The position numbers were made by a program, and so were the translations under genes. DNA of 64,000 nt. Source: a virus (Duplodnaviria; Caudoviricetes). A model generated the notes under the pieces. That model made no database searches, was not told where the DNA came from, and saw nothing but the letters and a program-made list of their open reading frames with translations. The DNA lies in IMG/VR virus record IMGVR_UViG_3300030104_006170, one strand, 5' to 3'. The stretch's first letter is position 1. Every line of letters begins with the position of its first letter. This document shows positions 995-21,950 of the stretch, one piece after another.

Positions 995-2429
995 CGTCTA
1001 TATTTTCTTTAATTTTCTTAACCATTTCTTTCTGTACCCATTTTACAAATTCTACATATCTTGTTGGTTTGGCGTCTGCTTTTTTATTGTAAGGTCCTTC
1101 TGGTTGTCTAGTTGCTCTACTAAAGAAATTTAACCCACTAATATTAGTTATACATTTGTGACCGCCACTATTAGCTTGTATAACATCCCAAGCTGGTACA
1201 GTTATCTTATCTAAAACTGCTTTTTGTTTTTCACTCAACTTGTCCCATGGTGTGTCAATTATACTAACCGCCATATCATAGTATTTAGAATCTGTTGATG
1301 GCATATTTTGTAGGTGGTCTTTATAGAGAGCGAATAAGTCTGAAGTTTTAAACCCAATACTTTCTCCTTCTGCTTTTGTCTCCCCTATTCTTTTAATCAC
1401 AGAGACTGGTACTTGGTGTTTTTTAAGTTGTGGTTCCACTTCTTTAAGTACTTCTTGTGCTATATCACCTAAGTTAACACCTTTAAGAGCTCTATCTTTT
1501 TTGAATGGATTACACGAAGCTTGTACAAGTCCCATTGGCCACGCCACCACAAAAAAGTCAGCGTCAGGATAAATTTTGAATGGTGTGTATCTATCATAGG
1601 AACCTGGTTTAAATAATCTACCACCTCCATATTGTACTATTATATTACCATCTAAATTTAGATTATCACTTTCTTGTTGGGATTTTATATATTCTGCTTG
1701 ATTTTGTGCCATTTCTTCTGGTGAAGCAAAACCTTTTTCTTTTGCGTATGAGGTTATGTTTTGGTAGATATTCATCAAGGATGGTGAAGAATTCATAACT
1801 AGATGTTCTAGGAATCCTGGTTTATTTTTATAAGCTAATAATAATTTATTAGTTAAAAGACCTAACATCCATCTTTTTTCGTAAGTCTGGTCACCAGATT
1901 CAAAATCTCTAATTAGATTCATTACTTGTTCTGGTTCAATATCGTGTTTTGCATAATCCGCAGAATCTACAGTATTAATCATCATTATATCTTCATCCGT
2001 AAAAATATCACTAGGACTTATAGTTTGTGAAATAGTTTCTACGTTTGACCTTGCTCCTCTAAATTGTGTTGCGGTATCATCTTCTACCCCTGCTTGTGAA
2101 TCGTGGTGGTCTGTATGGATTTTAAATATTGGTTTCCCGTGTGCAAAATCTACTAATACTGGCATTACATCTTCACTAGCTTGTGGTTTTTTTACTGAAA
2201 ATTCTTTGTCACCATATTGTATTACATGGGTGTCGATAACTTCTATACCATATTTTTCTAAGTAGTTCTTCATCCCTAAAGCGGATACCACCCCATCTAA
2301 ATCCTGGTGAAAATATATTTCTGCCTTTGGGTATCTTTGAGCTAACTTATTAATGTCTCTAATCCCACCTTCATTTATAAGTGACTCATTAATAAGTTCT
2401 AATTGTTTTGCTGTTATCTCGATTTTCAT
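984..2429 (-). CDS. DHH/DHHA1-like phosphoesterase with N-terminal MKIEIT leader
   Basis: Motifs HQDLDG, VDF, HTDHHDS and a C-terminal SGGHK. Start moved from 2495 to 2429 because 2495 overlaps the upstream gene and ATATTTATA lies 4 nt before 2429. Confidence 0.72.
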   Translation of the reverse strand: MKIEITAKQLELINESLINEGGIRDINKLAQRYPKAEIYFHQDLDGVVSALGMKNYLEKYGIEVIDTHVIQYGDKEFSVKKPQASEDVMPVLVDFAHGKPIFKIHTDHHDSQAGVEDDTATQFRGARSNVETISQTISPSDIFTDEDIMMINTVDSADYAKHDIEPEQVMNLIRDFESGDQTYEKRWMLGLLTNKLLLAYKNKPGFLEHLVMNSSPSLMNIYQNITSYAKEKGFASPEEMAQNQAEYIKSQQESDNLNLDGNIIVQYGGGRLFKPGSYDRYTPFKIYPDADFFVVAWPMGLVQASCNPFKKDRALKGVNLGDIAQEVLKEVEPQLKKHQVPVSVIKRIGETKAEGESIGFKTSDLFALYKDHLQNMPSTDSKYYDMAVSIIDTPWDKLSEKQKAVLDKITVPAWDVIQANSGGHKCITNISGLNFFSRATRQPEGPYNKKADAKPTRYVEFVKWVQKEMVKKIKENIDANQ

Positions 2430-2433
2430 ATTA

Positions 2434-2442
2434 TATAAATAT
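2434..2442 (-). promoter_or_regulatory. ATATTTATA motif (class II) upstream of the DHH gene
   Basis: ATATTTATA-TAAT-ATG on the minus strand. Confidence 0.5.
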
Positions 2443-2454
2443 CTACTTATTTGA

Positions 2455-3240
2455 TTAACACGGATGTCTTTTATCCCACCAAAATATATGGTCACCTATT
2501 TTCTTAGCTGACTTTTTATTGTTATTGTAAGATTTAGCGATAGTTCTAGTACTACCTGTACTTAAATCTACTATACTAGGGTTAACGTAGTGATTAACTT
2601 TAATAACATCCCCATCACCAAAGCCTTCAACTATTTTTAACATTTTATCAAAACCTTTTACTTTTTGGTTAGTTATCCTATTGTGTAACTCCTCAAACTT
2701 ACCTTCATTATCTAATCTATTAAAGTAGTTCCAAGTAGAGTATTGTTTTCCTTTTAATACAGAGTCTTTCATACTATATCCGCATTTATCTGCTCGGTTT
2801 TTTATTGTGGATAGTATCGCATTTAGTTCTTTTGTTCCAGCTCTCTGATTTTCACCAACTAAAGTAGAAGCTAAAATATAATCTTCATCATCTTTAGGAA
2901 TGTTTACATAAAGTCCTAATTTTTTTAAACCGTTAGGTCCTAATGGAATATTGTTATTTATTTGTTTACATAAATCTATGTTTAATTTAGTAGATAATGC
3001 TTTCAACATGTCTTTACCATAATAACCATCTCTACTTATACCTAATTTTTTTTGAATAACGTATATTGGGTGTGTTTTATCTAAATCATAATCACCATAA
3101 TTTAATATACTACCATTTCTTACCATGTCATAAAAAGAGACATCTACCTCGTTAAATTCTGTTTCTCCAGTAGGTACACAACTAACACCAACTTGTTCTA
3201 CAAGTTTAGTATATTGGTTTTCTGTGATTATTATACGCAT
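2455..3240 (-). CDS. Cell wall hydrolase (SleB/Hydrolase_2-like) with a peptidoglycan-binding segment and MRIIITENQY leader
   Basis: VIQKKLGISRDGYYG (PG-binding-like), then LASTLVGE...AILSTIKNR...SVLKGKQYSTWN...HYVNP...KIGDHIFW (SleB pattern). Start at 3240 rather than 3270. Confidence 0.8.
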   Translation of the reverse strand: MRIIITENQYTKLVEQVGVSCVPTGETEFNEVDVSFYDMVRNGSILNYGDYDLDKTHPIYVIQKKLGISRDGYYGKDMLKALSTKLNIDLCKQINNNIPLGPNGLKKLGLYVNIPKDDEDYILASTLVGENQRAGTKELNAILSTIKNRADKCGYSMKDSVLKGKQYSTWNYFNRLDNEGKFEELHNRITNQKVKGFDKMLKIVEGFGDGDVIKVNHYVNPSIVDLSTGSTRTIAKSYNNNKKSAKKIGDHIFWWDKRHPC

Positions 3241-3244
3241 AAAA

Positions 3245-3279
3245 AAGTCGTTTACAATAAATATAATCATAAACGACTT
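3245..3279 (-). terminator. Stem-loop followed by a T-run; intrinsic terminator or translational-repression hairpin with a class II motif in its loop
   Basis: Perfect 10-bp inverted repeat AAGTCGTTTA / TAAACGACTT around a 15-nt loop TGATTATATTTATTG; the 3' arm ends in a 6-T run that leads directly into the hydrolase ATG. Confidence 0.75.
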
Positions 3280-3303
3280 ACTCTATAAATAAACTCTAGT
3301 TAT

Positions 3304-4200
3304 TTACATACAACTAAAATACCTTTCTCCTCTATCACATAATATCGTTATAGCTTCTGTTTTGTCATTATCTCTTAACCACTGGAATGACGCAAATACA
3401 TTTGCTGCTGCACTTATCCCAACAAATAATCCATAATTTTTAGCTAAGTGTCTAGCACATGCTTTAGCACATTCTGTACTTACTATTCTTACTTCTGAAA
3501 CCACATCTAAATTTACTAAAAATTTACTTCCATCCCCAATACCTTGTATTCCATGTAACCCAGGTTCAAAACCCGACATTACCGCACTTTCTGCTGGTTC
3601 AATAGCTACTGATTTTATTTTAGGCCACATTTCTTTTAAAAATTTATCAGTACCCATTAAAGTACCACCTGTTCCGGTTCCAGCTACAAAAACTGCTGGT
3701 GATGATTTTTCACCTTTAATTTCTTTGTATTGATTGTAGAACTCGGGACCTGTAGTTTGGTAGTGTGCTTGGACATTTAGGGGGTTGGCGAACTGATTAC
3801 AGTTAAACCATTCGTTAACGTAACATAGTTCATCTCTCATCCTAATAGCTTCATCGAAGTCTCCTTCAGGTGCCTCAATTAATTCTGCCCCATAATACTC
3901 AAACATTTTTTTTCTTTCTTCAGACATGTTAGATGGCATTATTATCACCATCTTATACCCTCTTTCTGCTGCTAACATAGCAAATGCTATACCACTATTA
4001 CCACTAGTAGCTTCACACATAGTGTCTCCCGGAGTTAAAAGACCATTTTTTTCTGCATTGTTAATTATAAAAGTTGCCATCCTATCTTTTACTGAACCCG
4101 ATGGGTTCATAAACTCAGCTTTACCCCATACTGTGTATTTACCTATTTTTATAGGGATTAATGGTGTGTTGCCAGTGTAATTAGATAGTCTTTGTTTCAT
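3304..4200 (-). CDS. cysK: Cysteine synthase (O-acetylserine sulfhydrylase, PLP-dependent)
   Basis: GNTPL, KAEFMNPSGSVKDR (PLP lysine), EATSGNSGIA, GTGTGGT, HGIQGIG, LCDRGERYFS. Confidence 0.95.
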   Translation of the reverse strand: MKQRLSNYTGNTPLIPIKIGKYTVWGKAEFMNPSGSVKDRMATFIINNAEKNGLLTPGDTMCEATSGNSGIAFAMLAAERGYKMVIIMPSNMSEERKKMFEYYGAELIEAPEGDFDEAIRMRDELCYVNEWFNCNQFANPLNVQAHYQTTGPEFYNQYKEIKGEKSSPAVFVAGTGTGGTLMGTDKFLKEMWPKIKSVAIEPAESAVMSGFEPGLHGIQGIGDGSKFLVNLDVVSEVRIVSTECAKACARHLAKNYGLFVGISAAANVFASFQWLRDNDKTEAITILCDRGERYFSCM

Positions 4201-4628
4201 TAGTCTTCTATTTCTACGTTAAATTTGTCTCCTTGTTGTATTTTTTCAATTGTGTCTAACCCCTCAATAATTTTACCGAAACATGTGTGATTTCTATCTA
4301 AGTGTTGAGTTGCGTTTCTTGTATGTACAATAAAAAATTGTGACCCACCTGTATTTCTACCAGCGTGTGCCATAGATAGTACCCCTCTATCATGAAATTG
4401 GTTTTCTCCATCTAGTTCACAATCAATTTTATAACCTGGTCCACCATCTCCTCTTCCGTTAGGACAACCTCCTTGTGCTACGAATCCTGGAATAACTCGA
4501 TGAAAATTAAGGTCTTTATAAAAACCTTCTTTTGCTAGCTTAACAAAATTGTTTACTGTGTTTGGTGCGTCTTTTTCGTAAAACTCTACCACCATAGTTC
4601 CTTTATCTGTATTAATTTTACCTTTCAT
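4200..4628 (-). CDS. ppiB: Cyclophilin-type peptidyl-prolyl cis-trans isomerase
   Basis: APNTVNNF, FHRVIPGFVAQGG, GVLSMAHAGRNTGGSQFFI, HLDRNHTCFGK. Confidence 0.93.
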   Translation of the reverse strand: MKGKINTDKGTMVVEFYEKDAPNTVNNFVKLAKEGFYKDLNFHRVIPGFVAQGGCPNGRGDGGPGYKIDCELDGENQFHDRGVLSMAHAGRNTGGSQFFIVHTRNATQHLDRNHTCFGKIIEGLDTIEKIQQGDKFNVEIED

Positions 4629-4882
4629 TTTTTTAATTTATTAATTTCTCTGTTTATATACCAACTTGCTTTTTCCAAGTCTTCCAATGTATTAATTTTT
4701 TTACCTGCCCTAGAAATATACTTTACTGTATTACCTAAGTTAAATCCTAAGTCCCACGCTTCAATAACTTTAATAGCTTCATATGGGTTATCTTTACCAC
4801 CGTAGTGATTTGGGTGATTTACCTTTTCTGATTGTTTACGATTAAATTCTATTATTTCTTCGTTTGTAGGGTACTTAGTCAT
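4625..4882 (-). CDS. DUF3310 domain protein (SaV-like)
   Basis: VNHPNHY...EAIKVIE...FNLGNTVKYISRAGKK...LEDLEKASWYI. Confidence 0.88.
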   Translation of the reverse strand: MTKYPTNEEIIEFNRKQSEKVNHPNHYGGKDNPYEAIKVIEAWDLGFNLGNTVKYISRAGKKINTLEDLEKASWYINREINKLKK

Positions 4883-5213
4883 TTTTATCTTTTTTTATAT
4901 AATCTTTTACTTTTGTGTATTGAGAATTACTTAATAATGTAGTTTCATATCTTTTATAGATGTAATTTTTAAGTTCTTCAATATCTTTAAACTCGCTCTC
5001 ACAAACACTTACTATTTTAATATCGGTGTCTTCTTCGTCGGGAAAAAGTAATACCTCATAACCACTCTTATCACTTAAATCTAAAGCAAATTTTTCTAAA
5101 TCTCCTATTCTTAGTGTAGTTGGTTTGGATAGTTTTACCACCATTAGTGGTCTATATTTTTCTAATAGTAATTCGTTCGCTATTCTTTCAGTATTTGTAA
5201 TATCTTTAGACAT
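4875..5213 (-). CDS. Hypothetical protein
   Basis: 112-aa ORF tiling the operon, with a class I promoter directly upstream. Confidence 0.75.
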   Translation of the reverse strand: MSKDITNTERIANELLLEKYRPLMVVKLSKPTTLRIGDLEKFALDLSDKSGYEVLLFPDEEDTDIKIVSVCESEFKDIEELKNYIYKRYETTLLSNSQYTKVKDYIKKDKND

Positions 5214-5247
5214 AGTAAAATTTAAACAAAGTTAAAAATATAGTCAA
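5214..5247 (-). promoter_or_regulatory. Class I promoter TTGACT-N17-TAAATT-N5-ATG
   Basis: Read directly. A TAACTTTG (Bacteroidota -7-like) box also lies inside the spacer at 5227-5234. Confidence 0.55.
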
Positions 5248-5263
5248 TATGTACTGGGTGATT

Positions 5264-5587
5264 TTAATTAAGACAAAAAGGTGGGAAACCGTCTTTAATA
5301 TTTACGAATAATTTTTCTATTTCTTGTTGACGTTTTACAAATTCACCCACATTTATTTCTTGGGTTATATCTTGTATTGCTAAATCAGTAACTATTTCTA
5401 ACATTTCTGTAGAACTTAACATAGGGTCACCATTCTTTTTAAAGTTAATGGTCGCTTTTTTAGCGACCATTTTATAAAACTCATCAATATCTATCTTACC
5501 ATAACCAAACATATCTCTAAATGCTTCTTTATCAGTTTTAAAGAACTCTTTAAGTTTTTGTAAATAGATTTGTATATCAACTTCCAT
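5264..5587 (-). CDS. Hypothetical protein
   Basis: Tiling ORF. The second Met (MEVDIQ) is preferred because the first ATG overlaps a TATTTAT motif. Confidence 0.75.
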   Translation of the reverse strand: MEVDIQIYLQKLKEFFKTDKEAFRDMFGYGKIDIDEFYKMVAKKATINFKKNGDPMLSSTEMLEIVTDLAIQDITQEINVGEFVKRQQEIEKLFVNIKDGFPPFCLN

Positions 5588-5598
5588 ATACATAAATA

Positions 5599-5883
5599 CT
5601 AAACCAAGTTGTATTTTTTAACTATTCTTTTGTCTATGTTTGTTGTTTTACCCTCTTTTTTAAGTATATCATAGATTTTTTGTGCAGCGACCTTTATATC
5701 TTTCATCCCTCCCTCTACCTTACTTTTAGTCTTGTAAATCATAACTTCTACATTACCTGGAGTTTTTACTATTTTACCACCTATTCTCTTCGAGGTTTCT
5801 CTTGTAATTTTTTGTCTAACCTCATAGTTCACCATCTTGCAGATGTGGTGACCTCTTTTTTCCATTGTTGTACTTCCACCCAT
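5599..5883 (-). CDS. Hypothetical basic protein
   Basis: 94-aa tiling ORF; no recognised domain. Confidence 0.75.
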   Translation of the reverse strand: MGGSTTMEKRGHHICKMVNYEVRQKITRETSKRIGGKIVKTPGNVEVMIYKTKSKVEGGMKDIKVAAQKIYDILKKEGKTTNIDKRIVKKYNLV

Positions 5884-5896
5884 TTTATTTTATTTT

Positions 5897-6145
5897 TTAA
5901 AAATTAATACTCATCCATTGTAAATTACCACTATAAGTAATTGTCTTATCAAACATACTAGATTGGTACACACTTTTTAGATTTTCAGCTTCTTTTATTT
6001 TACCAAAAAGTTTTAGGTCATCATACCTAAAATTATTTTTCATAAATAATTCTAATTGTTTACCGGATAAAAGAAGGTGTATATTTCTTTCTACCCAGTC
6101 TTGGAAATCTATTGTATCCCAGTTTGATGCGTTTCTTTCTTTCAT
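5897..6145 (-). CDS. Hypothetical protein
   Basis: 82-aa tiling ORF preceded by TATATTTG-TAGT-ATG. Confidence 0.7.
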   Translation of the reverse strand: MKERNASNWDTIDFQDWVERNIHLLLSGKQLELFMKNNFRYDDLKLFGKIKEAENLKSVYQSSMFDKTITYSGNLQWMSINF

Positions 6146-6157
6146 ACTACAAATATA
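6146..6157 (-). promoter_or_regulatory. Bacteroidota-type -7 box TATATTTG, 4 nt before ATG
   Basis: Exact match to the TAnnTTTG consensus at 6150-6157; no good TTG upstream element. Confidence 0.5.
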
Positions 6158-6181
6158 CGACTTTTTTATTATTTTATTGTA

Positions 6182-6742
6182 TTATTTTGGAAAAACTTTT
6201 ATTTCTTTTGTTGTACTTACTAAATCACCCCACACACTATCTTTTTTATACCGAGTAGCTCTAACTTTATGGTTGTCTATGTAATGATACTCTGTAACGT
6301 CTTCGTGGATTCTTGGTTTACCAAAAATTATATAATGCCATCTTACTTCATTGTCTCTTAACCATTGTTCAGTAATTTCTCTATGTTCTTCTTTTCTCGA
6401 TGTAAAAAATGTAATTATATTACCTTCTTCATACCATTTATTAATTGTTTCTATCGAATTATGATACGGTTTTGCTGTAGACATTCTTTCAAATTGTTCG
6501 TTTGGAATGTCGTCACAAATAGTCCCGTCAATATCTATAATATAATTAACTTTATTAACTTGTTTTCTAATTTGTCTGTACCCAACCATTTTTTTCTCCA
6601 AGTATTCATCTATATCATATCTATATTCACCACATGAAGAATATAGACATTTTTTTTGGATTACTGTTTTTTTATCTTCTGTTAAATAAACTTCGGTTAT
6701 ACTATTTGCGTAATGTTGTGTGTAAATTAATATTTCTTCCAT
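6182..6742 (-). CDS. HAD-superfamily phosphatase (Bacteroidota 'phosphoheptose isomerase'-like family) with N-terminal extension
   Basis: NYIIDIDGTICDD (DxD motif I), FFTSR (motif II), FGKPR (motif III), IDNH. Confidence 0.8.
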   Translation of the reverse strand: MEEILIYTQHYANSITEVYLTEDKKTVIQKKCLYSSCGEYRYDIDEYLEKKMVGYRQIRKQVNKVNYIIDIDGTICDDIPNEQFERMSTAKPYHNSIETINKWYEEGNIITFFTSRKEEHREITEQWLRDNEVRWHYIIFGKPRIHEDVTEYHYIDNHKVRATRYKKDSVWGDLVSTTKEIKVFPK

Positions 6743-6743
6743 T

Positions 6744-6938
6744 TTATTTCTTTTTATCTATTTTTTTAATTATTGTTTTTTCCATTGCTATTATAACTCT
6801 TTCTAGTTTTAATATTTGATTCTCTAGTTGGATTATTTGTTCTCTTTTTTCTCTTCCTACCTTTGCCTCCCAAATTAACCATCCGAAGGCTACTACTTCT
6901 AAAATAAATAATGCTATTAATAATGTTGTGTCGTTCAT
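6744..6938 (-). CDS. Small membrane protein with coiled-coil tail
   Basis: N-terminal hydrophobic helix LLIALFILEVVAFGWLIW followed by heptad repeats. Confidence 0.7.
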   Translation of the reverse strand: MNDTTLLIALFILEVVAFGWLIWEAKVGREKREQIIQLENQILKLERVIIAMEKTIIKKIDKKK

Positions 6939-6939
6939 C

Positions 6940-8115
6940 TTATCTCCCTACTTCTTTTATATATTTTTCTTTTGTTTCTTCCCAGGATAAGTCAATCACA
7001 TCCCAGTAAAATAATTGTTCTTCTTTAATTCTATTTTGTTTCCAAATATTTTCATACCTACGAATAGCTTTAGGTTTCCACCATTTTTCAGTATAAGGAA
7101 TATCTTCTTTAAATTTCTTTTTTAAGATTAAGTCTTTTTCTTCTATTTCACCCCTTAAGAACTCACAACCATTATCATACATCATTGCAAGATAGACCCC
7201 CCTCTTAAACCCGTGGTCATAATCCGAACCCTTTATACCACAATGTTTAAAAACCTTGTTAAGGATGTTCTGTTTAGGTCCTGTAGCACTTATAGCTTTC
7301 TTATGTTCTTCTGGGTGGTTATCTTTCAACCATTTGTTCCAAGGTAGGTAAGCACTATCATCTGGTTTTAATCTAACCTTACCAGATGTTTCACCCATTG
7401 TTTTAAAATGTGGCATTCCATTATACATTGAATTTATTCCATACAGAGACGTTGTTCCCACAGCGATTAGTTTATCACCGTATTTTTCTTCCCAAGCATC
7501 TCTAATTGTTTTACAGGTTGTTAATGCGGCTACTAATTTACCCATTAACATATTATACCCACCTGGTTGGGTGGAACAGATAGTTGTTGCTATAGCTGTA
7601 TTGTTTAGTTTGTGTTGGTCAAACTTGTTGGTTTTATCCCAACCTATGTAGGCATCTCTAACTTTAATACTAGTAACATCAGACCCTAAACAAATCAAAC
7701 CAAGGACTTTGTTAGTTTTCCTATCTCTTACCCAGAATTTCATATTACGTCCAGGATTTGCAACCCATTCCATTGTATGGATAAGTTTACGGTAGTTTAC
7801 CCATTCGGTAACACCTTTTCCTGGTGTTGCCATTTCAACATAAGGTTCTAAGTTTTCAATTTCTGTTATTGTTTGTAATGTGTCTATTAAAAAAGTTGGT
7901 TTCCATAAATTTTCTTTATATGAATATAACTTCTTTTTTATTTTTGACATTTTACCACCCTTATTCATTTCTTGCCACTTTTTATAAAGTGTTTGTTCTT
8001 CTACAGACATTTCTTTAAGCATATCAAGATTGTCTATTAAGTTTTGTTTTTGACCTTCAAAGTCAAAAATCTCTTCATTTTCTATAATATCAAATATTGT
8101 TGTTTGTTCTCCCAT
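6940..8115 (-). CDS. DruA-like (DUF4338) protein
   Basis: PGRNMKFWVRD...LGLICLGSD...RDAYIGW...QPGGYNMLMGKLVA...WEEKYGD..IAVGTTSLYG..SMYNG pattern of DUF4338/DruA. Confidence 0.78.
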   Translation of the reverse strand: MGEQTTIFDIIENEEIFDFEGQKQNLIDNLDMLKEMSVEEQTLYKKWQEMNKGGKMSKIKKKLYSYKENLWKPTFLIDTLQTITEIENLEPYVEMATPGKGVTEWVNYRKLIHTMEWVANPGRNMKFWVRDRKTNKVLGLICLGSDVTSIKVRDAYIGWDKTNKFDQHKLNNTAIATTICSTQPGGYNMLMGKLVAALTTCKTIRDAWEEKYGDKLIAVGTTSLYGINSMYNGMPHFKTMGETSGKVRLKPDDSAYLPWNKWLKDNHPEEHKKAISATGPKQNILNKVFKHCGIKGSDYDHGFKRGVYLAMMYDNGCEFLRGEIEEKDLILKKKFKEDIPYTEKWWKPKAIRRYENIWKQNRIKEEQLFYWDVIDLSWEETKEKYIKEVGR

Positions 8116-8150
8116 GGTTTAATAATAAGATATTTTGTTGGTGTTTTCAA
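8116..8150 (-). promoter_or_regulatory. Class I promoter TTGAAA-N17-TATTAT-N6-ATG
   Basis: Read directly; the TTG starts exactly 35 nt before the ATG. Confidence 0.6.
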
Positions 8151-14549: not shown

Positions 14550-14550
14550 A

Positions 14551-15641: not shown

Positions 15642-16986
15642 CTTCCTGTTCTTTTTTACTAATATTAAGTGCTTCTGCTAATTTTTCAAGTTCTTTTTCA
15701 GTAGGATTTATTGGTTTTACTTCTTCAATTATTTCATTTTTACCTACTTCTTTACTTAAAGCTATTAGTTCTTCTTCTTCTAAATCATCATTACTTTTAA
15801 TAACCCTCACATCTTTTTTACTGTCTACTATTAAAGTTTGTGTGGTGTCTGTTAATCTATCTAATGAGATATCTGTCTCGTCGTAATGTAAACCATCATT
15901 ACCATTTTGACCTATGATATTCATTCTTTGTTCATCTATATCCATCTGTTTTTCTTCTGATGTATAATTTAGATAATTTTCTAAGTCTTCAAAGTATTGG
16001 TCATCTATAACTTCCTGTTCAAATAGTTCTTCCTCTTTAGTTTCATCTTTTTTATCTTGTCTTGCAAAAGCTTCTGACACTTCTTCCATGGTATATGGTG
16101 TGTCAAATTCTAAACCGTCTGGTTTTGACATTTTTACATCTTTAGGGTCAATCCCACTGGTTTGGACTATGAATTCTTCTTTTTTTGGTTTTATTTGTGC
16201 AAATGCGAAATTCGCTGCTACAACTAATGCGATTGCTAGTGGGTCAAATACAAATATAATTAATAATAAAAACCAATTAACTACCTCATTCATTGGTTTA
16301 CCGGTAGTTTCCGCTAAGTATTTTAAAGGCCCTAATTCTCTTTCAGCTTCGTTACTAACTTCTTTATCTAACAATAATACATCAGTTGAATTTATAGAAT
16401 CAAGAACAGCTTCTAATTTTATGTTAATCCCATCTCTATCTTTTATTGTGTTTTCTAATTCTTTTTGTAAAGCTCGTCTTGTAGAACTAGAAGTTGTTGT
16501 AATTACCTGTTCAGCCTCTTTATCATAATACGATACTGAACTTGGGTTTGATAAGGATATTCTTAGTTCTGAGATTGATTGGTTTAATTGTGTTTTTTCG
16601 AGTGTTAAATCCGTTTTTTGTTCTTCAAACCTAATTTGTTTTTGGTTTATTATTGCTAATGATTTATCTAACAGCTCAGATTTAGTAGCTGTCTCTTGAT
16701 ATGCTCCGGATAGAAATCCATATATACCACCACTCGTAATTAAGATAAGTATAAAACAGGCTAATGAAAGATATATTTTTAAAGCTCTGTTAATTGTGTC
16801 CCAGTATTGATATAGGAGTGAAGCTACTACAAGTTTTGCGAATTCTAGTGAACCTGCCATTATTATTACTTGGGTGGAAGCTCCGGCGAATAGTTTACTT
16901 AATCCAAACACTGAATAGAAGGCTGCTGAACCAGATACTGCCAATGCAGATAACGCAATTAATAACGGAAAAAGTCTTTTTTTCAT
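15607..16986 (-). CDS. Multi-pass membrane protein with a long coiled coil (large-myovirus conserved type)
   Basis: Three N-terminal TM segments (AAFYSVFGLSKLF...SLEFAKLV), coiled coil, ELGPLKYLA, a further TM (WFLLLIIFVFDPLAIALVVAA), acidic tail. Confidence 0.7.
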   Translation of the reverse strand: MKKRLFPLLIALSALAVSGSAAFYSVFGLSKLFAGASTQVIIMAGSLEFAKLVVASLLYQYWDTINRALKIYLSLACFILILITSGGIYGFLSGAYQETATKSELLDKSLAIINQKQIRFEEQKTDLTLEKTQLNQSISELRISLSNPSSVSYYDKEAEQVITTTSSSTRRALQKELENTIKDRDGINIKLEAVLDSINSTDVLLLDKEVSNEAERELGPLKYLAETTGKPMNEVVNWFLLLIIFVFDPLAIALVVAANFAFAQIKPKKEEFIVQTSGIDPKDVKMSKPDGLEFDTPYTMEEVSEAFARQDKKDETKEEELFEQEVIDDQYFEDLENYLNYTSEEKQMDIDEQRMNIIGQNGNDGLHYDETDISLDRLTDTTQTLIVDSKKDVRVIKSNDDLEEEELIALSKEVGKNEIIEEVKPINPTEKELEKLAEALNISKKEQEDDNKTLRYKGR

Positions 16987-17000
16987 TTTTATCTTTATTG

Positions 17001-17008
17001 ATAAATAT
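17001..17008 (-). promoter_or_regulatory. ATATTTAT motif (class II)
   Basis: Overlaps the sigma-factor stop codon, 14 nt upstream of the ATG at 16986. Confidence 0.45.
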
Positions 17009-17805
17009 TAATCACCCAGGTATTCTAACAGTTGGTAGCTGTCATTTCTTAATTTTCTTAATACTTTTTCTTTTATTTGTCTTACTCTTTCTTTAGTTAG
17101 ACTTAGTCCGTCCCCAATTTCTTGTAGAGTCATTGGTGTACCACATAGACCATAATAGTCTATAATAATGTTTCTTTCTCTTTCATCTAGGCTAGACATC
17201 AATTTATAAAGTTCATCTTTTAAATTAACTTCATCTGCAAAAATATCTTCAGGATTTTCAGCATCTGGATTAACTAATATATCTATGAGAGTATCACCTT
17301 CTTCATTTATTGGTCGGTCATAGTTAATTGTTACTGGTAACATAGCAAGTTTACTATTCCACTTTTCTATTTCCTGACTAATTTTTTTCTTTTCTCTTTG
17401 TAGTTCTTGAATTATGTTCACCGGTAGTCTTATAGTCCTAGCGTTTTCGTTTAGACATTGTAGTATAGATTGTTTAACCCACCAGACAGCGTAAGAAATA
17501 AACCTAAAACCTTTATCCCAATCAAAGTTTTTTATCGCTTTAAGTAAACCATAATTACCTTCTGCAATTAAATCAGAAAGTTCAACCCCTTGTCCTTGGT
17601 AGTCTTTCGCTACACTAATAACAAATCTAAGGTTTCCCTCTAGTAATTCTAAATGTACTTCTTCTCTTTTTTCTATCGGGGTGTTCTTATCTAACATTAT
17701 TTTAGCTAATTCTTTTTCTCTAGCTGGTGTTAGTACTTTTCTTTTTCTCACATCTTTTAAGTAGTGTGATATTTCTGCCTGATTTATAAATGTATTTTTT
17801 GCCAT
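17008..17805 (-). CDS. rpoD: RNA polymerase sigma-70 factor (RpoD/SigA-like, Bacteroidota-type, no region 1.1)
   Basis: Region 1.2 YLKDV; region 2 NLRFVISVAKDY..DLIAEGNYGL.KAI..FD...RFISYAVWW; region 4 HTH MTLQEIG..LSLTKERVRQI. Confidence 0.92.
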   Translation of the reverse strand: MAKNTFINQAEISHYLKDVRKRKVLTPAREKELAKIMLDKNTPIEKREEVHLELLEGNLRFVISVAKDYQGQGVELSDLIAEGNYGLLKAIKNFDWDKGFRFISYAVWWVKQSILQCLNENARTIRLPVNIIQELQREKKKISQEIEKWNSKLAMLPVTINYDRPINEEGDTLIDILVNPDAENPEDIFADEVNLKDELYKLMSSLDERERNIIIDYYGLCGTPMTLQEIGDGLSLTKERVRQIKEKVLRKLRNDSYQLLEYLGD

Positions 17806-17895
17806 TATATTAATTTTTATTAGTTACTATACTATAGTACAATAAGCGTACCATTTAATATTAACTGACTTTTTGTCAGATATATTATATGTGTA

Positions 17896-17926
17896 CAAAT
17901 ATAAAAAATTAATTTGTGGCCAACAA
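17896..17926 (-). promoter_or_regulatory. Bacteroidota-type promoter TTG-N20-TATATTTG upstream of the sigma gene
   Basis: TTGTTG-N17-TATATTTG on the minus strand, about 90 nt upstream of the start codon. Confidence 0.6.
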
Positions 17927-17937
17927 GGATTTGTTGG
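17920..17937. repeat. Inverted repeat CCAACAA-GGAT-TTGTTGG overlapping the upstream promoter element
   Basis: 7-bp perfect stem with a 4-nt loop; a second stem CTGAC-TTTTT-GTCAG lies at 17865-17879. Confidence 0.7.
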
Positions 17938-17943
17938 TTTATT

Positions 17944-18282
17944 TTATATGCAGTAATTTTTTTGTATTAATTCTAAAGCCTCTTCTGCTGTCTCATAACC
18001 TGCACCAGCACTAAATATTTCTTGATTCCCATCAACATCTTCTATTATCATTACTGGAGTATTACTAACTTTATCTGGATGTTTGTCAGCTAAATCATGA
18101 AATTCCCATCTATTAGCAGCATTTTCTTTATTAACCGTATAGTCAGGTGGTGTTTGTGCTGTAATACATTTATTTTGGTATTTTATAAGATTGTTGTCGA
18201 ATAATTGTTGTATTTCTTGACATGAAGGGCAAACAGCTTCTGTCATTAGAGTTATTTTATATTTACTAGTATCTAATTTCAT
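17944..18282 (-). CDS. Thioredoxin/glutaredoxin-fold protein (CPSC)
   Basis: CPSC active-site-like motif near the N-terminus and a cis-Pro-like SNTPVMII segment. Confidence 0.7.
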   Translation of the reverse strand: MKLDTSKYKITLMTEAVCPSCQEIQQLFDNNLIKYQNKCITAQTPPDYTVNKENAANRWEFHDLADKHPDKVSNTPVMIIEDVDGNQEIFSAGAGYETAEEALELIQKNYCI

Positions 18283-18288
18283 TTTTTT

Positions 18289-18846
18289 TTACTTGTTAAA
18301 TTTATTTAAAAATTCTTTTTCTTCTATAGTTAAACTATCGATTCCCTCTTCTATTATTTTATCCAAAAGTCCGTCAATGGTCATTGGAGTTAACTTTGTT
18401 TTTTTAAAATTACTAATATTTTTACTTTTGTCAATGTCTTTCTTCAACTTTTTTACTCTGTCGTTAACTATTGATTGTAACTGTTGAGTTAGTATCTCAG
18501 CAATTTTAGGGTCTATGTTTTTATATTTGGGTTTTGCCTTTCCAAACAAATGATTTTTTAAATTTTCGTCCATTCTATAAGCTAGTTTTCTAGGTTTAGG
18601 CATTAGAAATAGAGTATTTATAAATGGTGAAAGAAATTCTTTTAGTATTTCATCGATTTCTTCAAAGGACAGTCGAGATTTTACACACATTATTATTACA
18701 TGGTCTCCGGTAATGAAAGTAAATTCTTCTTCAGTAACTATAGTCTCCATAACATCTCTAATATTATTAACTACTTCAGAATTTTTTTCAATCATACTCC
18801 AATTACCGAACATAAATAAAAGGTATTGTCTAACTCTTGGTCCCAT
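18289..18846 (-). CDS. Hypothetical protein with C-terminal DUF6576-like motif
   Basis: C-terminus IDGLLDKIIEEGIDSLTIEEKEFLNKF; ATATTTATA lies 3 nt upstream (18850-18858). Confidence 0.7.
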   Translation of the reverse strand: MGPRVRQYLLFMFGNWSMIEKNSEVVNNIRDVMETIVTEEEFTFITGDHVIIMCVKSRLSFEEIDEILKEFLSPFINTLFLMPKPRKLAYRMDENLKNHLFGKAKPKYKNIDPKIAEILTQQLQSIVNDRVKKLKKDIDKSKNISNFKKTKLTPMTIDGLLDKIIEEGIDSLTIEEKEFLNKFNK

Positions 18847-18858
18847 ACTTATAAATAT

Positions 18859-21186
18859 TTATTTTAATTTAGAAATATTACTTTCTTTAGTGATTGTTAT
18901 TATATTATCGGACCATTCTCTTACTAAAGGATTATGTGTGATTAAAAATATATTTTCAAAATAATCTTTAACTCTACTAAAAAATGTACCTACCTGGTCA
19001 AGATTTTCATTACTTACCTTACCCAATACTTCATCAAATACAGTTATGTTTGGTCGTGGTAGACAAGATACCTTAGTCAATACCGTTCTAATAGCAAGAG
19101 ATGCTAGTGTTTTTTCAAAACCACTCCCAGTAACTAATAATTTTTCTACGCCAGTATTATTATCTACCATCCAAAACTCTACTTCATTTTTATCACTAAC
19201 TCTTATTTCAACCATAAAATTAGTTACGTCGGATAATAACCTCATTAATTCACTATTAAGTTTTGGTACGACACTTTTAACTATTGTTTTTATTATCCCA
19301 TTCTTACCAAATACAGTTAAATAAGCTCTAAAAATTTCTTCAACTTCATTTTCTTTTTTAATTTTACTTATCTTAGTATTATGTTCTACTATAGTGTCTT
19401 CTGCTACTTTTATCCCACTAATATTACTTTCTATATCTCTTATTAAAGAATCCTTATTTGTTTTTAATACGTCTATGGTAGAGTTAGTGGTTAATATTTT
19501 TTTATCTATTTCCGCATTTTCTTCAAGTTTATTTTTATTACTTTCCCATTCTTCTAATTTATTTCTTAACTCCCTTATATCTAATTCTTTTTTATTTATC
19601 TCTAATACTAATCTTTCTTTTTTTAACATTTCTTTCTCGTACTCATCAAAAATTGTTTTTTTAGTGGTGAGTTTATCTACTTCTTCATTTAGGTTAGTTA
19701 GTTTTATTTCTTCCTTATTTATTGTGGTGGTTAGTTGGTTTACTTCATTTTTTAAGGATTCAATCTCATCTGTATGGTCGACATCTTTTAAAGGTTGTTT
19801 ACAAGTAGGGCATATTTCTGCCTCTATTAAATTTTTTAATGTTTTATTTAAATTTTTTAAATTAGTTGTATTTTGTATCTTTTTATGTAAGGTATTATCC
19901 CTTTCTTTTGTCTTATGACTTAAAATTTCTAAGTCTATCTCTTCTGGAATTTCTTTATCCCCATAAGCTTTTAATTTTAAATCTAAACTTAATAAATTTG
20001 AATTATTTTCATCTAGATTTTCTTTTAATAACCTAGGATTTACCTTCTCTATTTCACTATCTATATCAATAAATTTTTTACTTATTAATTCATCCCTATT
20101 TTTATTGTTCTTTAACAGTTCAACCTCTACTTTTTTTAGATTTTTTTCATTCTCTATGTTATTTTGTGTTAAGGTATTTTTTGTTTCCTCTTCTTTTTTA
20201 ATACCTTGTTTTAAATCTTCAATATTATAAACATTAGATATTAATTTTTTTGACCAAGCGGAATACATTTCTTTACACGTTTTTTCTTTGTCTTTTAAAA
20301 CTTCTAGACCTATAAATCTACTTAAAACATTACCTCTTTCTGTAGGTTTTGACTCTATAAGTGATTCTAGGTTACCAGCAGTAGATAAAACTGTTAGTAA
20401 AAAATCATTCATAGTACCAATAGATTCCTTTATAAACTTTTCCGTTTCTCTTCTTTGTTCACCTGTAAAATTTTGTAATGAACCGTCTTTTTTTCTTTCT
20501 AAAAACTCTAAACTAGTACTAACAGACCAATCCCCTTTTTTTGTCTTTCTTCTTTTAATTTTTCTAACTATAATATAATCTTTCCCATCTATTTCAACTT
20601 CTCCTTGAACGAAAACTTCATTACTTTTTCTAAATCTATTAAAAATATCGATTGCTTTAGTAGTTTTAGTTGTGGTGTTAAAGAATAAGAATAGTATTAG
20701 GTCTACAGCTAAAACGGATTTACCCCCAAAATTGGGTGGGTTAGAGTCTATGACGGTAATACCCCCTAGTTTTTCTACATTTAGTGTGTTATTATCCCCA
20801 AATGATAAGAAATTAGAAAATTTTATATTTTTAATATACACTCTTTTGTATTTGGTGTCCATTTCGACTTCATCCGCAATTTTTGCGTTTACCTTATCAT
20901 CTAATCTTTTCAACAAATCTATATCCACTCTCATATCATTTGCCATAACAAATTGTGACATGAGATTCCTTTGATATGTGGTGTCCATTACATTTTGTTC
21001 TAGGTCTATATCTAGTTCGTTTCCTGACTTTCTATCAATAGCTCTAGTAAGGACTGTTACATTCTTAGAATTGTATTTGTTTTGAAAGTAACTTCTAACC
21101 CTTTTAATTCTTTCTTGTGTAAAATTTTCTGGTATGTCGTCCCATGTAACCTTAATGAAAGGATTTTCTAACTTATCTATTTCCAT
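18859..21186 (-). CDS. sbcC: SbcC/Rad50-like SMC ATPase (T4 gp46-like recombination nuclease subunit)
   Basis: KFSNFLSFG, Walker A GGKS, coiled coils with a CPTC zinc hook, signature GSGFEK, Walker B VFDEVLG, H-loop LITH. Confidence 0.9.
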   Translation of the reverse strand: MEIDKLENPFIKVTWDDIPENFTQERIKRVRSYFQNKYNSKNVTVLTRAIDRKSGNELDIDLEQNVMDTTYQRNLMSQFVMANDMRVDIDLLKRLDDKVNAKIADEVEMDTKYKRVYIKNIKFSNFLSFGDNNTLNVEKLGGITVIDSNPPNFGGKSVLAVDLILFLFFNTTTKTTKAIDIFNRFRKSNEVFVQGEVEIDGKDYIIVRKIKRRKTKKGDWSVSTSLEFLERKKDGSLQNFTGEQRRETEKFIKESIGTMNDFLLTVLSTAGNLESLIESKPTERGNVLSRFIGLEVLKDKEKTCKEMYSAWSKKLISNVYNIEDLKQGIKKEEETKNTLTQNNIENEKNLKKVEVELLKNNKNRDELISKKFIDIDSEIEKVNPRLLKENLDENNSNLLSLDLKLKAYGDKEIPEEIDLEILSHKTKERDNTLHKKIQNTTNLKNLNKTLKNLIEAEICPTCKQPLKDVDHTDEIESLKNEVNQLTTTINKEEIKLTNLNEEVDKLTTKKTIFDEYEKEMLKKERLVLEINKKELDIRELRNKLEEWESNKNKLEENAEIDKKILTTNSTIDVLKTNKDSLIRDIESNISGIKVAEDTIVEHNTKISKIKKENEVEEIFRAYLTVFGKNGIIKTIVKSVVPKLNSELMRLLSDVTNFMVEIRVSDKNEVEFWMVDNNTGVEKLLVTGSGFEKTLASLAIRTVLTKVSCLPRPNITVFDEVLGKVSNENLDQVGTFFSRVKDYFENIFLITHNPLVREWSDNIITITKESNISKLK

Positions 21187-21221
21187 GTCTTAAATATCGT
21201 ATATTTATTAGTATAAATCAA
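21187..21221 (-). promoter_or_regulatory. Class I promoter TTGATT-N17-GATATT-N6-ATG; shares the gap with a plus-strand ATATTTAT (21201-21208)
   Basis: The TTG starts exactly 35 nt before the sbcC ATG; the divergent gap is 41 bp. Confidence 0.5.
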
Positions 21222-21227
21222 TATGAA

Positions 21228-21950
21228 GTGAAAATTAGAATAACCGAAAATCAGTACACTAAATTAGTTAAGGAACAGAGGATTAGTATAGACAAAATTA
21301 AGAAAAATCTTCCTGACCCAATTAAAAAAATAGCGGAAGCTATCATTAATAGATTAACTAAACCTAGTCCTACTGATTATAAAACATTACGTACATTATC
21401 TAGAGATAAATTAAAAAAAGTTTTAAGTTACATTCCTTCTAAATATAAAAATAATGGTGATGCTCCAACATTGTACCCAATACCCACTTTACCAAAAAAA
21501 ATTAATAGTTGTTATGGGTATAGAACTGCTACTGGTACTAATAGATTACACAGTGGTGTGGATTTGGATACTACTGGTTTAAGAAATGACCAACCTCTTA
21601 TATCTGCATGTGCGGGTATTGTTAGTAAAGCTAGTGATGATGGTGGTGATTGTGGTGGTTTTATAAAAGTTGATTGTAATAATGGGGATGCTGTTGGTTA
21701 TTGCCATATGAAAGTTGTTAATGAAAACTTGTATGGTTTAAAAATACCTAAAGGTTTTCCTGTTGGGGTTTCTGGTGGTGGTGAAGGTGACCCAGGTGCT
21801 GGTAATTCTATGGGTCCTCACTTACATTACATGATTTGGAAGGGTGGTAAAAAAGTTAACCCTATAAATGTGATGGCTGGTGGACATACTATTCCTGCTG
21901 GTGGTAGTGAAAATAGAAAGGGTAAGTATTGTGACCCTAACGCTAGATAG
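21228..21950 (+). CDS. M23 family peptidoglycan endopeptidase with MKIRITENQY leader (GTG start)
   Basis: HSGVDL (HxxxD), ISACAGIV, GGFIKV, YCHM, GNSMGPHLHY (HxH). Confidence 0.9.
   Translation: MKIRITENQYTKLVKEQRISIDKIKKNLPDPIKKIAEAIINRLTKPSPTDYKTLRTLSRDKLKKVLSYIPSKYKNNGDAPTLYPIPTLPKKINSCYGYRTATGTNRLHSGVDLDTTGLRNDQPLISACAGIVSKASDDGGDCGGFIKVDCNNGDAVGYCHMKVVNENLYGLKIPKGFPVGVSGGGEGDPGAGNSMGPHLHYMIWKGGKKVNPINVMAGGHTIPAGGSENRKGKYCDPNAR

What the first reader, a model, noticed from the sequence alone, without database searches (positions are those of the whole stretch)
2382..21278. Shared N-terminal leader on three unrelated enzymes: possible capsid-targeting, protease-cleaved tag
Seen: MKIEITAKQLELINESLINE (DHH, start 2429), MRIIITENQYTKLVEQ (SleB-like, start 3240) and MKIRITENQYTKLVKEQ (M23, start 21228). 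The last two are nearly identical as protein but differ at many synonymous codon positions, which points to selection on the peptide. All three follow an ATATTTAT motif. Established: T4 internal proteins carry an N-terminal capsid-targeting sequence that the prohead protease removes after (I/L)-x-E. Inference: this is a modular packaging tag that loads wall-degrading and nucleotide-degrading cargo into the particle for delivery at infection.
Basis: partly seen in the sequence, partly recalled or inferred. Interest (0 to 1): 0.8.

Follow-up and report, generated by a model that had tools for sequence, protein, structure and literature searches.

The report
Portable N-terminal tag on jumbo-phage proteins
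Three unrelated enzymes of this uncultured marine giant T4-like phage start with the same ~16-residue peptide, which also heads dozens of unrelated proteins in related ocean phages and looks like phage T4's "load into the head, then clip off" label, though neither loading nor clipping has been shown.

Summary
The DHH-type phosphoesterase (start 2429, -), the SleB-like wall hydrolase (3240, -) and the M23 peptidase (21228, +, GTG start) share an N-terminal leader.

It belongs to a large family, consensus M-K-I-I-I-T-E-x-Q-[YFL]-x-x-[LI]-x-E:
- A truncated IMG/VR scan gave 146 ORFs falling into 69 unrelated cargo groups.
- Related phages carry 8-12 tagged genes per ~280-295 kb genome.
- Synonymous codons vary freely at the conserved residues, so selection acts on the peptide.

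The carriers encode T4-type head genes (S77 prohead protease, gp23 capsid protein). The leader usually ends in L/I-x-E, the T4 protease motif, and matches a conserved L-I-N-E|A/S site in the clade's capsid protein. All 107 DHH relatives with a recognisable domain start have [LIVM]-x-E directly before it, whatever the propeptide length.

The same cargo carries a T4-CTS-like leader in Mahaphages. At the window's SleB locus a relative has a GH24 lysozyme behind the same leader. In other relatives DHH is fused to wall hydrolases.

Best reading (about 0.55): a T4-style capsid-targeting, protease-clipped tag. This is inferred, not shown. The ATATTTAT motif is a general promoter-like element of the clade, not specific to tagged genes. 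Earlier notes of this scan proposed similar tags elsewhere in this genome.

The parts
984..2429 (-). DHH/DHHA1-type phosphoesterase gene (481 aa) carrying the leader
   Evidence: Translation. Pfam DHH scores 19.4 bits, below the cut-off. It is 55% identical to the G015 orthologue. More than 4000 relatives were found, some fused to M23, GH19, LAS or SET domains.
2370..2429 (-). DHH leader, 20 residues, with two tandem L-I-N-E motifs (predicted cut after E15 and/or E20)
   Evidence: there is a 4-residue insertion relative to G015. In 107 of 107 relatives with a recognisable domain start, [LIVM]-x-E directly precedes the conserved start of the DHH domain.
2435..2442 (-). ATATTTAT promoter-like motif, 5 nt before the ATG (leaderless-type spacing)
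2455..3240 (-). SleB-like wall hydrolase gene (261 aa): leader, then a PG-binding-like region, then a Hydrolase_2-like catalytic domain
   Evidence: Translation. No Pfam hit. It is 27% identical, E 1e-11, to a leader + PG_binding_1 + Hydrolase_2 protein. The AF2 model has pLDDT 89.6 and its top fold match is SleB 4fet.
3193..3240 (-). SleB-like leader, 16 residues, ending L-V-E-Q
   Evidence: In the AF2 model it is a detached short helix of low confidence; residues 11-17 have pLDDT below 50.
3245..3279 (-). 14-bp hairpin followed by a U run, with ATATTTAT (3257-3264) in its loop and 3' arm: a terminator/promoter cassette in front of the SleB-like gene
   Evidence: -13.8 kcal/mol, z -4.2. Read, the last 41 nt before the ATG are identical in L059, where they precede a GH24 lysozyme.
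21201..21208 (+). ATATTTAT motif upstream of the M23 gene (19 nt before the GTG)
21228..21950 (+). M23 metallopeptidase gene (240 aa, GTG start) carrying the leader
   Evidence: Translation. Pfam PF01551 scores 46.2 bits, above the cut-off. The HxxxD and HxH motifs are readable in the protein. Orthologues are listed.
21228..21278 (+). M23 leader, 17 residues, ending L-V-K-E-Q
   Evidence: The variant MKIQITESQYRAIVEQ occurs in relative G004.

Best explanation
The shared N-terminus is a portable propeptide of about 16 residues, with a strand-prone M-K-I-I-I-T-E followed by a short amphipathic helix ending in L/I-x-E. A clade of uncultured marine T4-like jumbo phages places it on many unrelated proteins.

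By analogy with the capsid targeting sequence (CTS) of the T4 internal proteins, it most likely docks the protein to the scaffolding core of the assembling prohead. The gp21-type prohead protease then removes it after the glutamate. Predicted cuts are after E15 in the SleB-like protein, E16 in M23, and E15 and/or E20 in DHH.

The mature enzymes would then travel in the head and leave with the DNA at infection. The wall hydrolases would act on peptidoglycan and the DHH enzyme on a phosphoester substrate that has not been identified.

Shown here:
- The tag exists.
- It is under peptide-level selection.
- It is modular.
- It co-occurs with T4-type head genes.
- It ends in the protease-type motif.

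Inferred: binding to the core, cleavage, packaging, ejection and timing.
For: 1. Family and modularity. They hold 146 ORFs, nearly all at ORF starts, forming 69 unrelated cargo groups. A profile search of 5.8 billion proteins found 390 more among the capped candidates.

2. Peptide-level selection. Codon use at the conserved I, T, E and Q positions follows the background, and Ser8 uses both TCN and AGY codons.

3. Carriers are T4-like. The S77 protease is found in 14 of 47 records, including 3 of 3 near-complete phage genomes. The fourth near-complete record is a 41.5-kb provirus whose only hit is a 29-residue ORF, read as chance. The gp23 capsid protein is found in 5 of 5 records. The window shares its DHH (55% identity) and a large structural protein (46-47% over its N-terminal ~555 residues) with them. 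Each genome carries 8-12 tagged genes.

4. Protease motif.
- E stands at position 15 or 16 after L/I in 37 of 69 groups.
- The clade's capsid proteins keep [LM]-I-[NY]-E|[AS] just ahead of the part that aligns with mature T4 gp23.
- In the DHH family, [LIVM]-x-E directly precedes the conserved domain start in 107 of 107 members with a recognisable start. Propeptides run from 6 to 110 residues and the middle residue varies.
- T4 gp21 cuts after L/I-x-E, and 10-19-residue CTS propeptides load the internal proteins (PMC9026906).

5. Leader swap on the same cargo. DHH and a HAD-like protein carry this leader in the clade. In Mahaphages they carry a leader resembling the T4 CTS (M..KY.QFINEE and MDILRFDQFIRES, against T4 MKTYQEFIAE). 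The homology starts right after the leaders.

6. Cargo swap behind the same leader. At the window's SleB locus, relatives L018 and L059 have a GH24 lysozyme behind the same leader; L059 has the identical upstream DNA and L018 a near-identical one.

7. Detached tag. In the AF2 model of the SleB-like protein, residues 1-20 are a low-confidence appendage (pLDDT 51-54) on a confident fold.

8. Link between cargoes. DHH is fused to M23, GH19 or LAS peptidase domains plus PG_binding_1 in relatives, and a lysin gene precedes DHH in conserved synteny.

9. Shared promoter motif. The TATTTAT motif that precedes many tagged genes also precedes the prohead protease and scaffold genes.
Against: - No virion proteome, N-terminal sequence or cultured member exists. 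The closest cultured phage (Flavobacterium phage immuto, capsid protein 42% identical) lacks the leader.
- 20 of 69 cargo groups have no strict [LI]-x-E between residues 9 and 30. All have I5-T6-E7, but that was imposed by the search pattern.
- The residue after the predicted cut is Q in the SleB-like and M23 proteins, not the A/S/G seen at the capsid and DHH junctions.
- The tagged wall hydrolases have the build of modular endolysins (PHROG endolysin hits). The only GH24 lysozyme detected in near-complete G015 is tagged, so such phages would need another lysis enzyme. The M23 of G048 has no leader.
- Cargo such as pterin-4a-carbinolamine dehydratase is hard to rationalise as an injected protein.
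- The promoter motif is not specific to tagged genes, and its late timing is only inferred.
- The window's own head genes were not seen, because no genome is held.
Confidence: 0.55

Rival explanations
1. The leader is a docking or assembly helix for another destination: the tail or baseplate, a virion-associated lysin site, or an intracellular complex. On this reading it is not a head-loading signal, and it may not be cleaved.
For: Wall hydrolases in myoviruses usually sit in the tail or baseplate. The DHH-lysin fusions with PG_binding_1 point to the envelope as the place of action. The binding partner is unknown, and 20 of 69 cargo groups lack the second L/I-x-E.
Against: The invariant [LIVM]-x-E junction in 107 of 107 DHH relatives with a recognisable domain start and its match to the capsid protein site point to the head protease, which acts inside proheads in T4. 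Orthologous cargo in Mahaphages carries a leader resembling the T4 CTS.
Confidence: 0.17
2. The conserved 5' end of these genes is an expression element: a translation-start region for leaderless late mRNAs, or a homology patch for recombination. On this reading it is not a protein tag.
For: TATTTAT ends 4-5 nt before the ATG in 41 of the 58 leader genes that have the motif, so these mRNAs may be leaderless. Codon 2 is AAA in 57 of 60 lysines. The promoter plus leader moves as a cassette in front of different cargo.
Against: Synonymous codons at positions 3-9 follow the background, and Ser8 switches between TCN and AGY codons. Conservation runs to residue 16 as an amphipathic pattern. Control ORFs show the same promoter spacing without having the leader.
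Confidence: 0.08
3. The leader is a lysis-related signal that exports, holds or times peptidoglycan hydrolases (endolysins).
For: Two of the three window proteins, and several cargo groups (GH24, SLT, Hydrolase_2, PG_binding_1, LysM), are wall hydrolases. P0002 and P0003 hit PHROG endolysin families.
Against: The leader is hydrophilic to amphipathic and has no membrane-spanning stretch (read). Most cargo groups are not lysins; they include DHH, pterin dehydratase and more than 50 groups without a Pfam family. The M23 of G048, next to a membrane protein, lacks the leader.
Confidence: 0.05

Closest known systems
Capsid targeting sequence (CTS) of phage T4 internal proteins IPI, IPII, IPIII and Alt, removed by prohead protease gp21 (PMC9026906)
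   Same: It sits at the extreme N-terminus. It is short (10-19 residues in T4, about 16 here). It is found on unrelated, fast-changing cargo. It ends in L/I-x-E. The phages have gp21-type protease and gp23-type capsid genes. Cargo is exchanged behind a conserved leader.
   Different: There is no sequence similarity to MKTYQEFIAE. It is longer and carries two L/I-x-E units (I5-T6-E7 and one at about 13-16). There are about 10 tagged genes per genome, and the cargo includes wall hydrolases and a DHH enzyme. Nothing has been shown experimentally.
Processed head and ejection proteins of phiKZ-like giant phages (phiKZ, 201phi2-1, SPN3US), cut at S/A-x-E by a diverged gp21-type protease (PMC9026906, PMC7411985)
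   Same: Large phages that pack many proteins in the head. The propeptides are removed after a glutamate.
   Different: The cleavage motif differs (S/A-x-E). No single conserved portable leader is described for them. The phage lineage is different.
Polyvalent injected proteins of phages and conjugative elements, as cited in Iyer et al. 2021 (PMC7824862)
   Same: They combine wall-degrading and other enzymatic domains that enter with the DNA. The DHH-M23, DHH-GH19, DHH-LAS and DHH-SET fusions in relatives have this look.
   Different: In the window the domains are separate genes, each with its own leader, rather than one giant polypeptide.
PeSL (promoter-early stem-loop) cassettes of T4-type phages. 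I did not read the paper; the name and PMC2839356 come from earlier scan note e1-5403355.
   Same: A short conserved promoter and hairpin unit stands in front of interchangeable genes, as at 3245-3279 and identically in L059.
   Different: Here the unit continues into a conserved coding leader, and the promoter motif is the one shared with the head genes.

Membership tests
T4-type capsid targeting sequence / gp21-cleaved propeptide | Short peptide at the extreme N-terminus of otherwise unrelated proteins | tested here: met
   69 unrelated cargo groups share the leader; nearly all matches lie a few codons after an in-frame stop.
T4-type capsid targeting sequence / gp21-cleaved propeptide | Ends in the protease motif L/I-x-E | tested here: met
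   The window proteins end L-V-E15, V-K-E16, and I-N-E15 plus I-N-E20. 37 of 69 groups have the motif ending at position 15 or 16. In the DHH family it is found in 107 of 107 members with a recognisable domain start.
T4-type capsid targeting sequence / gp21-cleaved propeptide | The phage encodes a gp21-type (S77) prohead protease and a gp23-type capsid protein | tested here: met
   Met in relatives: 3 of 3 near-complete phage genomes and 14 of 47 records have S77, and 5 of 5 have Gp23. The window's own genome is not held; its kinship rests.
T4-type capsid targeting sequence / gp21-cleaved propeptide | Sequence similarity to the T4 CTS (MKTYQEFIAE) | tested here: not met
   No resemblance by eye. 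Only the Mahaphage leaders on orthologous cargo resemble it.
T4-type capsid targeting sequence / gp21-cleaved propeptide | Cargo is incorporated into the prohead core, and the leader is removed in mature virions | not testable with these tools
   There is no cultured member and no proteome. No RNA run holds the stretch either.
T4-type capsid targeting sequence / gp21-cleaved propeptide | Late expression together with the head genes | tested here: inconclusive
   TATTTAT precedes the protease and scaffold genes and 44% of leader genes, but also 29% of other ORFs.
Peptidase_M23 (PF01551) | Pfam match above the gathering score, with HxxxD and HxH metal-binding motifs | tested here: met
   46.2 bits against a cut-off of 28.7. 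H-S-G-V-D and H-L-H are readable.
SleB/CwlJ cell wall hydrolase (Hydrolase_2, PF07486) | Pfam match or equivalent homology to the catalytic domain | tested here: inconclusive
   No direct Pfam hit even at E 1. Homology to a Hydrolase_2 protein: 27% identity, E 1e-11. The top fold match is SleB 4fet, probability 1.00 but E 0.018.
DHH/DHHA1 phosphoesterases (PF01368) | Pfam match and the motifs DxD, D, DHH and GGGH | tested here: inconclusive
   19.4 bits, below the cut-off of 28.1. D-L-D, D-H-H and G-G-H are readable. No activity or substrate is known.
Signal peptide or SAR-type endolysin anchor | Hydrophobic N-terminal membrane segment | tested here: not met
   The leader has charged or polar residues at positions 2, 7-9, 11-12 and 15-16.

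The most novel reading that the evidence does not exclude
The tag defines a whole injected proteome of about ten proteins per genome in an abundant, uncultured clade of ocean T4-like jumbo phages. Its conserved core would be an 'entry kit' of a wall hydrolase plus a DHH phosphoesterase. These are fused in some relatives and split and separately tagged here. On this reading the DHH enzyme is delivered ready-made to destroy a host nucleotide signal or another phosphoester target at the moment of infection.
Probability: 0.3. Interest if true: 0.75.

Novelty: new variant of a known kind. Interest (0 to 1): 0.55.

Why it matters
If the tag is a head-loading signal, reading it lists what these abundant ocean phages carry into the cell besides DNA. 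That list includes cell-wall enzymes and a very common DHH enzyme of unknown role, so an otherwise opaque set of 'hypothetical' genes becomes sortable from sequence alone.

It would also show that the T4 load-and-clip logic has been reinvented with different leader sequences in different giant-phage lineages. A compact tag of this kind could serve for packing foreign proteins into phage heads in Bacteroidota systems.

If it is not a loading signal, it remains an unexplained, strongly selected address peptide on at least 69 protein families.

Tried and rejected
- Whole genome of the window: not held. Head genes were therefore studied only in relatives.
- tblastn of a 22-residue leader against cultured and deposited phages: no match at E 10. 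The query is too short to be informative.
- Closest cultured phage (immuto) scanned with the leader profile: only a weak internal match.
- Literature search for MKIIITE: no paper holds it.
- First profile made only from the SleB and M23 leaders (A2): it found mostly orthologues and was replaced by the broader A4.
- Sequencing runs: no RNA holder is listed for window 900-3400, so nothing can be said about expression, and no reads were laid.
- Idea that the DHH leader is a chance look-alike: rejected, because orthologues carry the canonical form.
- Idea that ATATTTAT marks the tagged genes specifically: rejected.
- A complex prediction (leader with scaffold or protease) was considered and not run. 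The partner is unknown, and enzyme-substrate or coiled-coil pairs are poor cases for that test.
- Foldseek against the PDB gave no hit at E 0.001 or better for the SleB-like model. The SleB match is a weak-E top hit.
Full report
**Observation**

- DHH-type protein, ATG at 2429 on the minus strand: MKIEITAKQLELINESLINE.
- SleB-like protein, ATG at 3240 on the minus strand: MRIIITENQYTKLVEQ.
- M23 peptidase, GTG at 21228 on the plus strand: (M)KIRITENQYTKLVKEQ.

A relaxed six-frame regex finds no other copy in the window. The SleB-like and M23 leaders share 12 of the first 14 residues, then E-Q after a one-residue gap. Nine of the 13 shared residues other than the start codon use different codons.

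Orthologues fix the start sites. In L056 an in-frame stop lies two codons upstream of the SleB-like start, and a divergent M23 variant in relative G004 starts with ATG.

Enzyme identities:
- M23 is confirmed by Pfam.
- The SleB-like protein has no direct Pfam hit. It is homologous to a protein built of leader + PG_binding_1 + Hydrolase_2. Its AF2 model (pLDDT 89.6) has B. anthracis SleB as top fold match.
- The DHH call is below Pfam's cut-off, but the DxD, DHH and GGH motifs are present.

**What the genome is**

The window is AT-rich (28-40% G+C). It carries Rad50/Mre11-like genes and large tail and baseplate genes. Its own genome is not held.

Close relatives are IMG/VR fragments that CheckV rates at 19-32% complete for 61-102 kb, which implies about 300 kb genomes. 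More distant relatives that share the DHH protein (55% identity) and a large structural protein (46-47% over its N-terminal ~555 residues) are near-complete at 281-295 kb.

Earlier notes of this scan on the same genome call it a marine T4-like jumbo phage of Flavobacteriales and had already proposed T4-like tags in other windows. I treated those notes as leads only.

**The leader is a large family**

I scanned IMG/VR with a degenerate DNA pattern for M-[KR..]-I-x-I-T-E-x-Q-x3-[LI..]. These hold 146 matching ORFs, nearly all within a few codons of an upstream stop. Once the first 20 residues are removed, they fall into 69 groups with no detectable similarity to each other.

Positions the pattern left free are also conserved:
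- I at position 4 in 44 of 69 groups.
- Y, F or L at position 10 in 55 of 69.
- K, R or N at position 11.
- E at position 15 in 27 groups and at position 16 in 16 groups.

The consensus is M-K-I-I-I-T-E-[SEN]-Q-[YFL]-[KRN]-x-[LI]-x-E. A profile search of 5.8 billion proteins found 390 more among a capped candidate list, all unnamed metagenomic proteins. No paper in the library holds the string MKIIITE.

Only 14 Pfam families turn up among the 69 cargo groups, among them GH24 lysozyme, PG_binding_1, Hydrolase_2, SLT, pterin-4a-carbinolamine dehydratase, Phage_L5_gp82 and Peptidase_M78.

The window's DHH leader looks only weakly similar, but it is a diverged member. Orthologues begin MKIIITESQ... 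and the window lineage has a four-residue insertion that duplicates L-I-N-E.

**Selection acts on the peptide**

At the conserved Ile, Thr, Glu and Gln positions, synonymous codons occur in about the background proportions. Ser at position 8 is encoded by both TCN and AGY codons.

This argues against a purely nucleotide-level role, such as a translation start region or a recombination patch. The bias to AAA at codon 2 and the frequent promoter spacing of 4-5 nt leave some room for an added expression effect.

**The carriers have T4-type heads**

The T4 prohead protease family (Peptidase_S77) is found above cut-off in 14 of 47 leader-bearing records. It is present in all three near-complete phage genomes. 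The fourth near-complete record is a 41-kb provirus whose single hit is a 29-residue ORF and probably chance. Gp23-type capsid proteins are found in 5 of 5 records tested.

A leader profile finds 12, 8, 12 and 10 tagged genes in G015, G048, G033 and G019, partly in clusters. It finds 3 in the 412-kb G045, which uses a variant leader, MKK[VI]IRLTES[DE]L.

The G015 list has 11 ORFs: the DHH enzyme, its only detected GH24 lysozyme, and nine unknowns. The closest cultured phage, Flavobacterium phage immuto (capsid protein 42% identical), lacks the leader.

**Link to the head protease**

T4 gp21 cuts after L/I-x-E, and the 10-19-residue CTS propeptides of the internal proteins are removed that way (PMC9026906). 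Three observations connect the leader to this logic:

1. The leader ends with [LI]-x-E at residues 13-15 or 14-16 in 37 of 69 cargo groups. This is several-fold above chance even given L/I at position 13.
2. The clade's capsid proteins keep [LM]-I-[NY]-E followed by A or S about ten residues ahead of the segment that aligns with residue 27 of mature T4 gp23. This is the expected place for the maturation cut, and it is the same L-I-N-E seen in several leaders.
3. In the very large DHH family (more than 4000 hits), [LIVM]-x-E stands directly before the conserved start of the domain in all 107 members with a recognisable start. Meanwhile the middle residue varies (K, N, S, T, L, R, Q, I) and the propeptide ranges from 6 to 110 residues, most often the 7-residue MKKIIKE.

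An invariant P3 and P1, a free P2 and a free propeptide length together are what a protease site looks like, rather than ordinary domain conservation. This is still inference.

**Modularity in both directions**

The same leader stands on different cargo at one locus. Upstream of the DHH gene the window and most close relatives have the SleB-like gene, but L018 (G003) and L059 have a GH24 lysozyme there behind the same leader. Read, L059 has the same 41 nt of upstream DNA as the window; in L018 the upstream DNA is near-identical.

The same cargo also carries different leaders. In Mahaphages LR745206 and LR756502 the DHH homologue (40-45% identical) begins M-I-S-K-Y-N-Q-F-I-N-E-E or M-L-R-K-Y-G-Q-F-I-N-E-E. 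A HAD-like protein begins M-D-I-L-R-F-D-Q-F-I-R-E-S there and M-N-I-K-I-T-E-S-Q-Y in the marine clade. BLAST homology (34%, E 2e-37) starts exactly after the two leaders.

The Mahaphage leaders resemble the T4 CTS MKTYQEFIAE (the string is held in PMC8442874). Mahaphages give only a sub-threshold S77 match.

**The tag is detached from the fold**

In the AF2 model of the SleB-like protein, residues 1-20 have pLDDT 51-54. There is a short helix at residues 7-14, and the lowest confidence falls at 11-17, across the predicted cut. The rest is above 87 apart from a dip to 81 around residues 161-170.

**Link between the cargoes**

In relatives the DHH module is fused at its C-terminus to one of the following:
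- M23 + PG_binding_1.
- PG_binding_1 + GH19.
- A LAS-type peptidase + PG_binding_1.
- A SET domain.

Where DHH is fused to M23, a GH24 lysozyme gene overlaps its start and a DUF192 gene converges on its end. This is the same order as in the window: SleB-like, then DHH, then the convergent gene at 659-994.

So the two adjacent tagged genes of the window are a split form of a conserved lysin-DHH module. This supports a shared place of action at the envelope during entry or exit. It does not show what the DHH enzyme hydrolyses.

**The DNA motif**

ATATTTAT precedes all three genes (2435-2442, 3257-3264, 21201-21208). TATTTAT is enriched just upstream of genes in general. In related loci it occurs before 58 of 131 leader genes and 299 of 1040 other ORFs, with preferred gaps of 4-6 nt and 12-17 nt to the ATG.

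It precedes prohead protease and scaffold genes, and three structural operons in the window. It is therefore plausibly the clade's late promoter element, but it is not a mark of tagged genes.

In front of the SleB-like gene it sits in a 14-bp hairpin followed by a U run (z -4.2). That unit is a terminator/promoter cassette that travels with the leader.

**Weighing**

The best reading is a T4-style capsid-targeting propeptide that the prohead protease removes (about 0.55). Weak points:
- There are no proteomic data and no cultured member.
- A fifth to a quarter of cargo groups lack the second L/I-x-E.
- Q follows the predicted cut in two of the window proteins.
- The tagged lysins are built like endolysins, and some cargo has housekeeping-type functions.

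Rival readings:
- A docking tag for another destination (0.17).
- An expression or recombination element (0.08).
- A lysis-related signal (0.05).

No RNA run holds the stretch, so timing could not be examined.

**Novelty**

The logic is that of the T4 CTS, so this is a new variant of a known kind. The sequence, its length, its two-unit build, its spread over at least 69 cargo families in an abundant uncultured ocean clade, and the lysin-DHH module do not appear in the papers I could search.

This scan has noted comparable tags in other huge phages and in other windows of this genome.

Noticed in passing
window 3245-3279 (-); the same 41 nt precede the ATG in L059, upstream of position 4803: A 14-bp hairpin plus U run carries the TATTTAT motif in its loop and 3' arm, directly before the SleB-like ATG. 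The identical unit precedes a GH24 lysozyme in a relative. It looks like a portable terminator/promoter cassette of the PeSL kind.
   Followed up: partly
P0300, P0301, P0307, P0278 (relatives of window 984-2429): The DHH module is a carrier for swappable C-terminal domains: M23 + PG_binding_1, PG_binding_1 + GH19, LAS-type peptidase + PG_binding_1, or a SET domain. There are also 637-aa forms with an unknown extension and forms with an extra N-terminal domain of about 100 residues.
   Followed up: partly
window 659-994 (+): A DUF192-like gene converges on the end of the DHH gene. The same arrangement is kept in distant relatives (L175, L176), so lysin - DHH - DUF192 is a conserved three-gene neighbourhood.
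   Followed up: partly
L141 (G045, 412-kb phage), ORFs at 2057-2455(+) and 2496-2828(-), next to the prohead protease gene: Two small ORFs start with a variant leader, MKK[VI]IRLTES[DE]L..[IL]I.E. This suggests the leader family is wider than the pattern used here.
   Followed up: no
related loci L021-L140, and window 2435-2441: In many genes TATTTAT ends only 4-5 nt before the ATG. If it is a -10-like element, these mRNAs would be leaderless or nearly so. A second class has a gap of 12-17 nt.
   Followed up: partly
L175 726-3796 and 7435-8004: In a more distant marine relative, neighbouring proteins begin with short peptides that end in [LI]-x-E followed by S or G: MSKLFINE|S on a GH24 lysozyme, MNLSQVLLE|S and MKLLNLIE|G. 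These look like T4-length propeptides of a different leader type.
   Followed up: no
L153-L157 (capsid genes of relatives): The capsid proteins of four of the five relatives begin M-G-A-L-L-E-S, which is itself an L-x-E|S motif at residues 4-6, in addition to the predicted L-I-N-E|A site near residue 60.
   Followed up: no
L001 35340(+) and L002 880(-) (Mahaphage records LR745206, LR756502): Further Mahaphage ORFs start with peptides resembling the T4 CTS (MIKKYLDFIKES, MDILRFDQFIRES), so that lineage has its own recurrent leader.
   Followed up: partly
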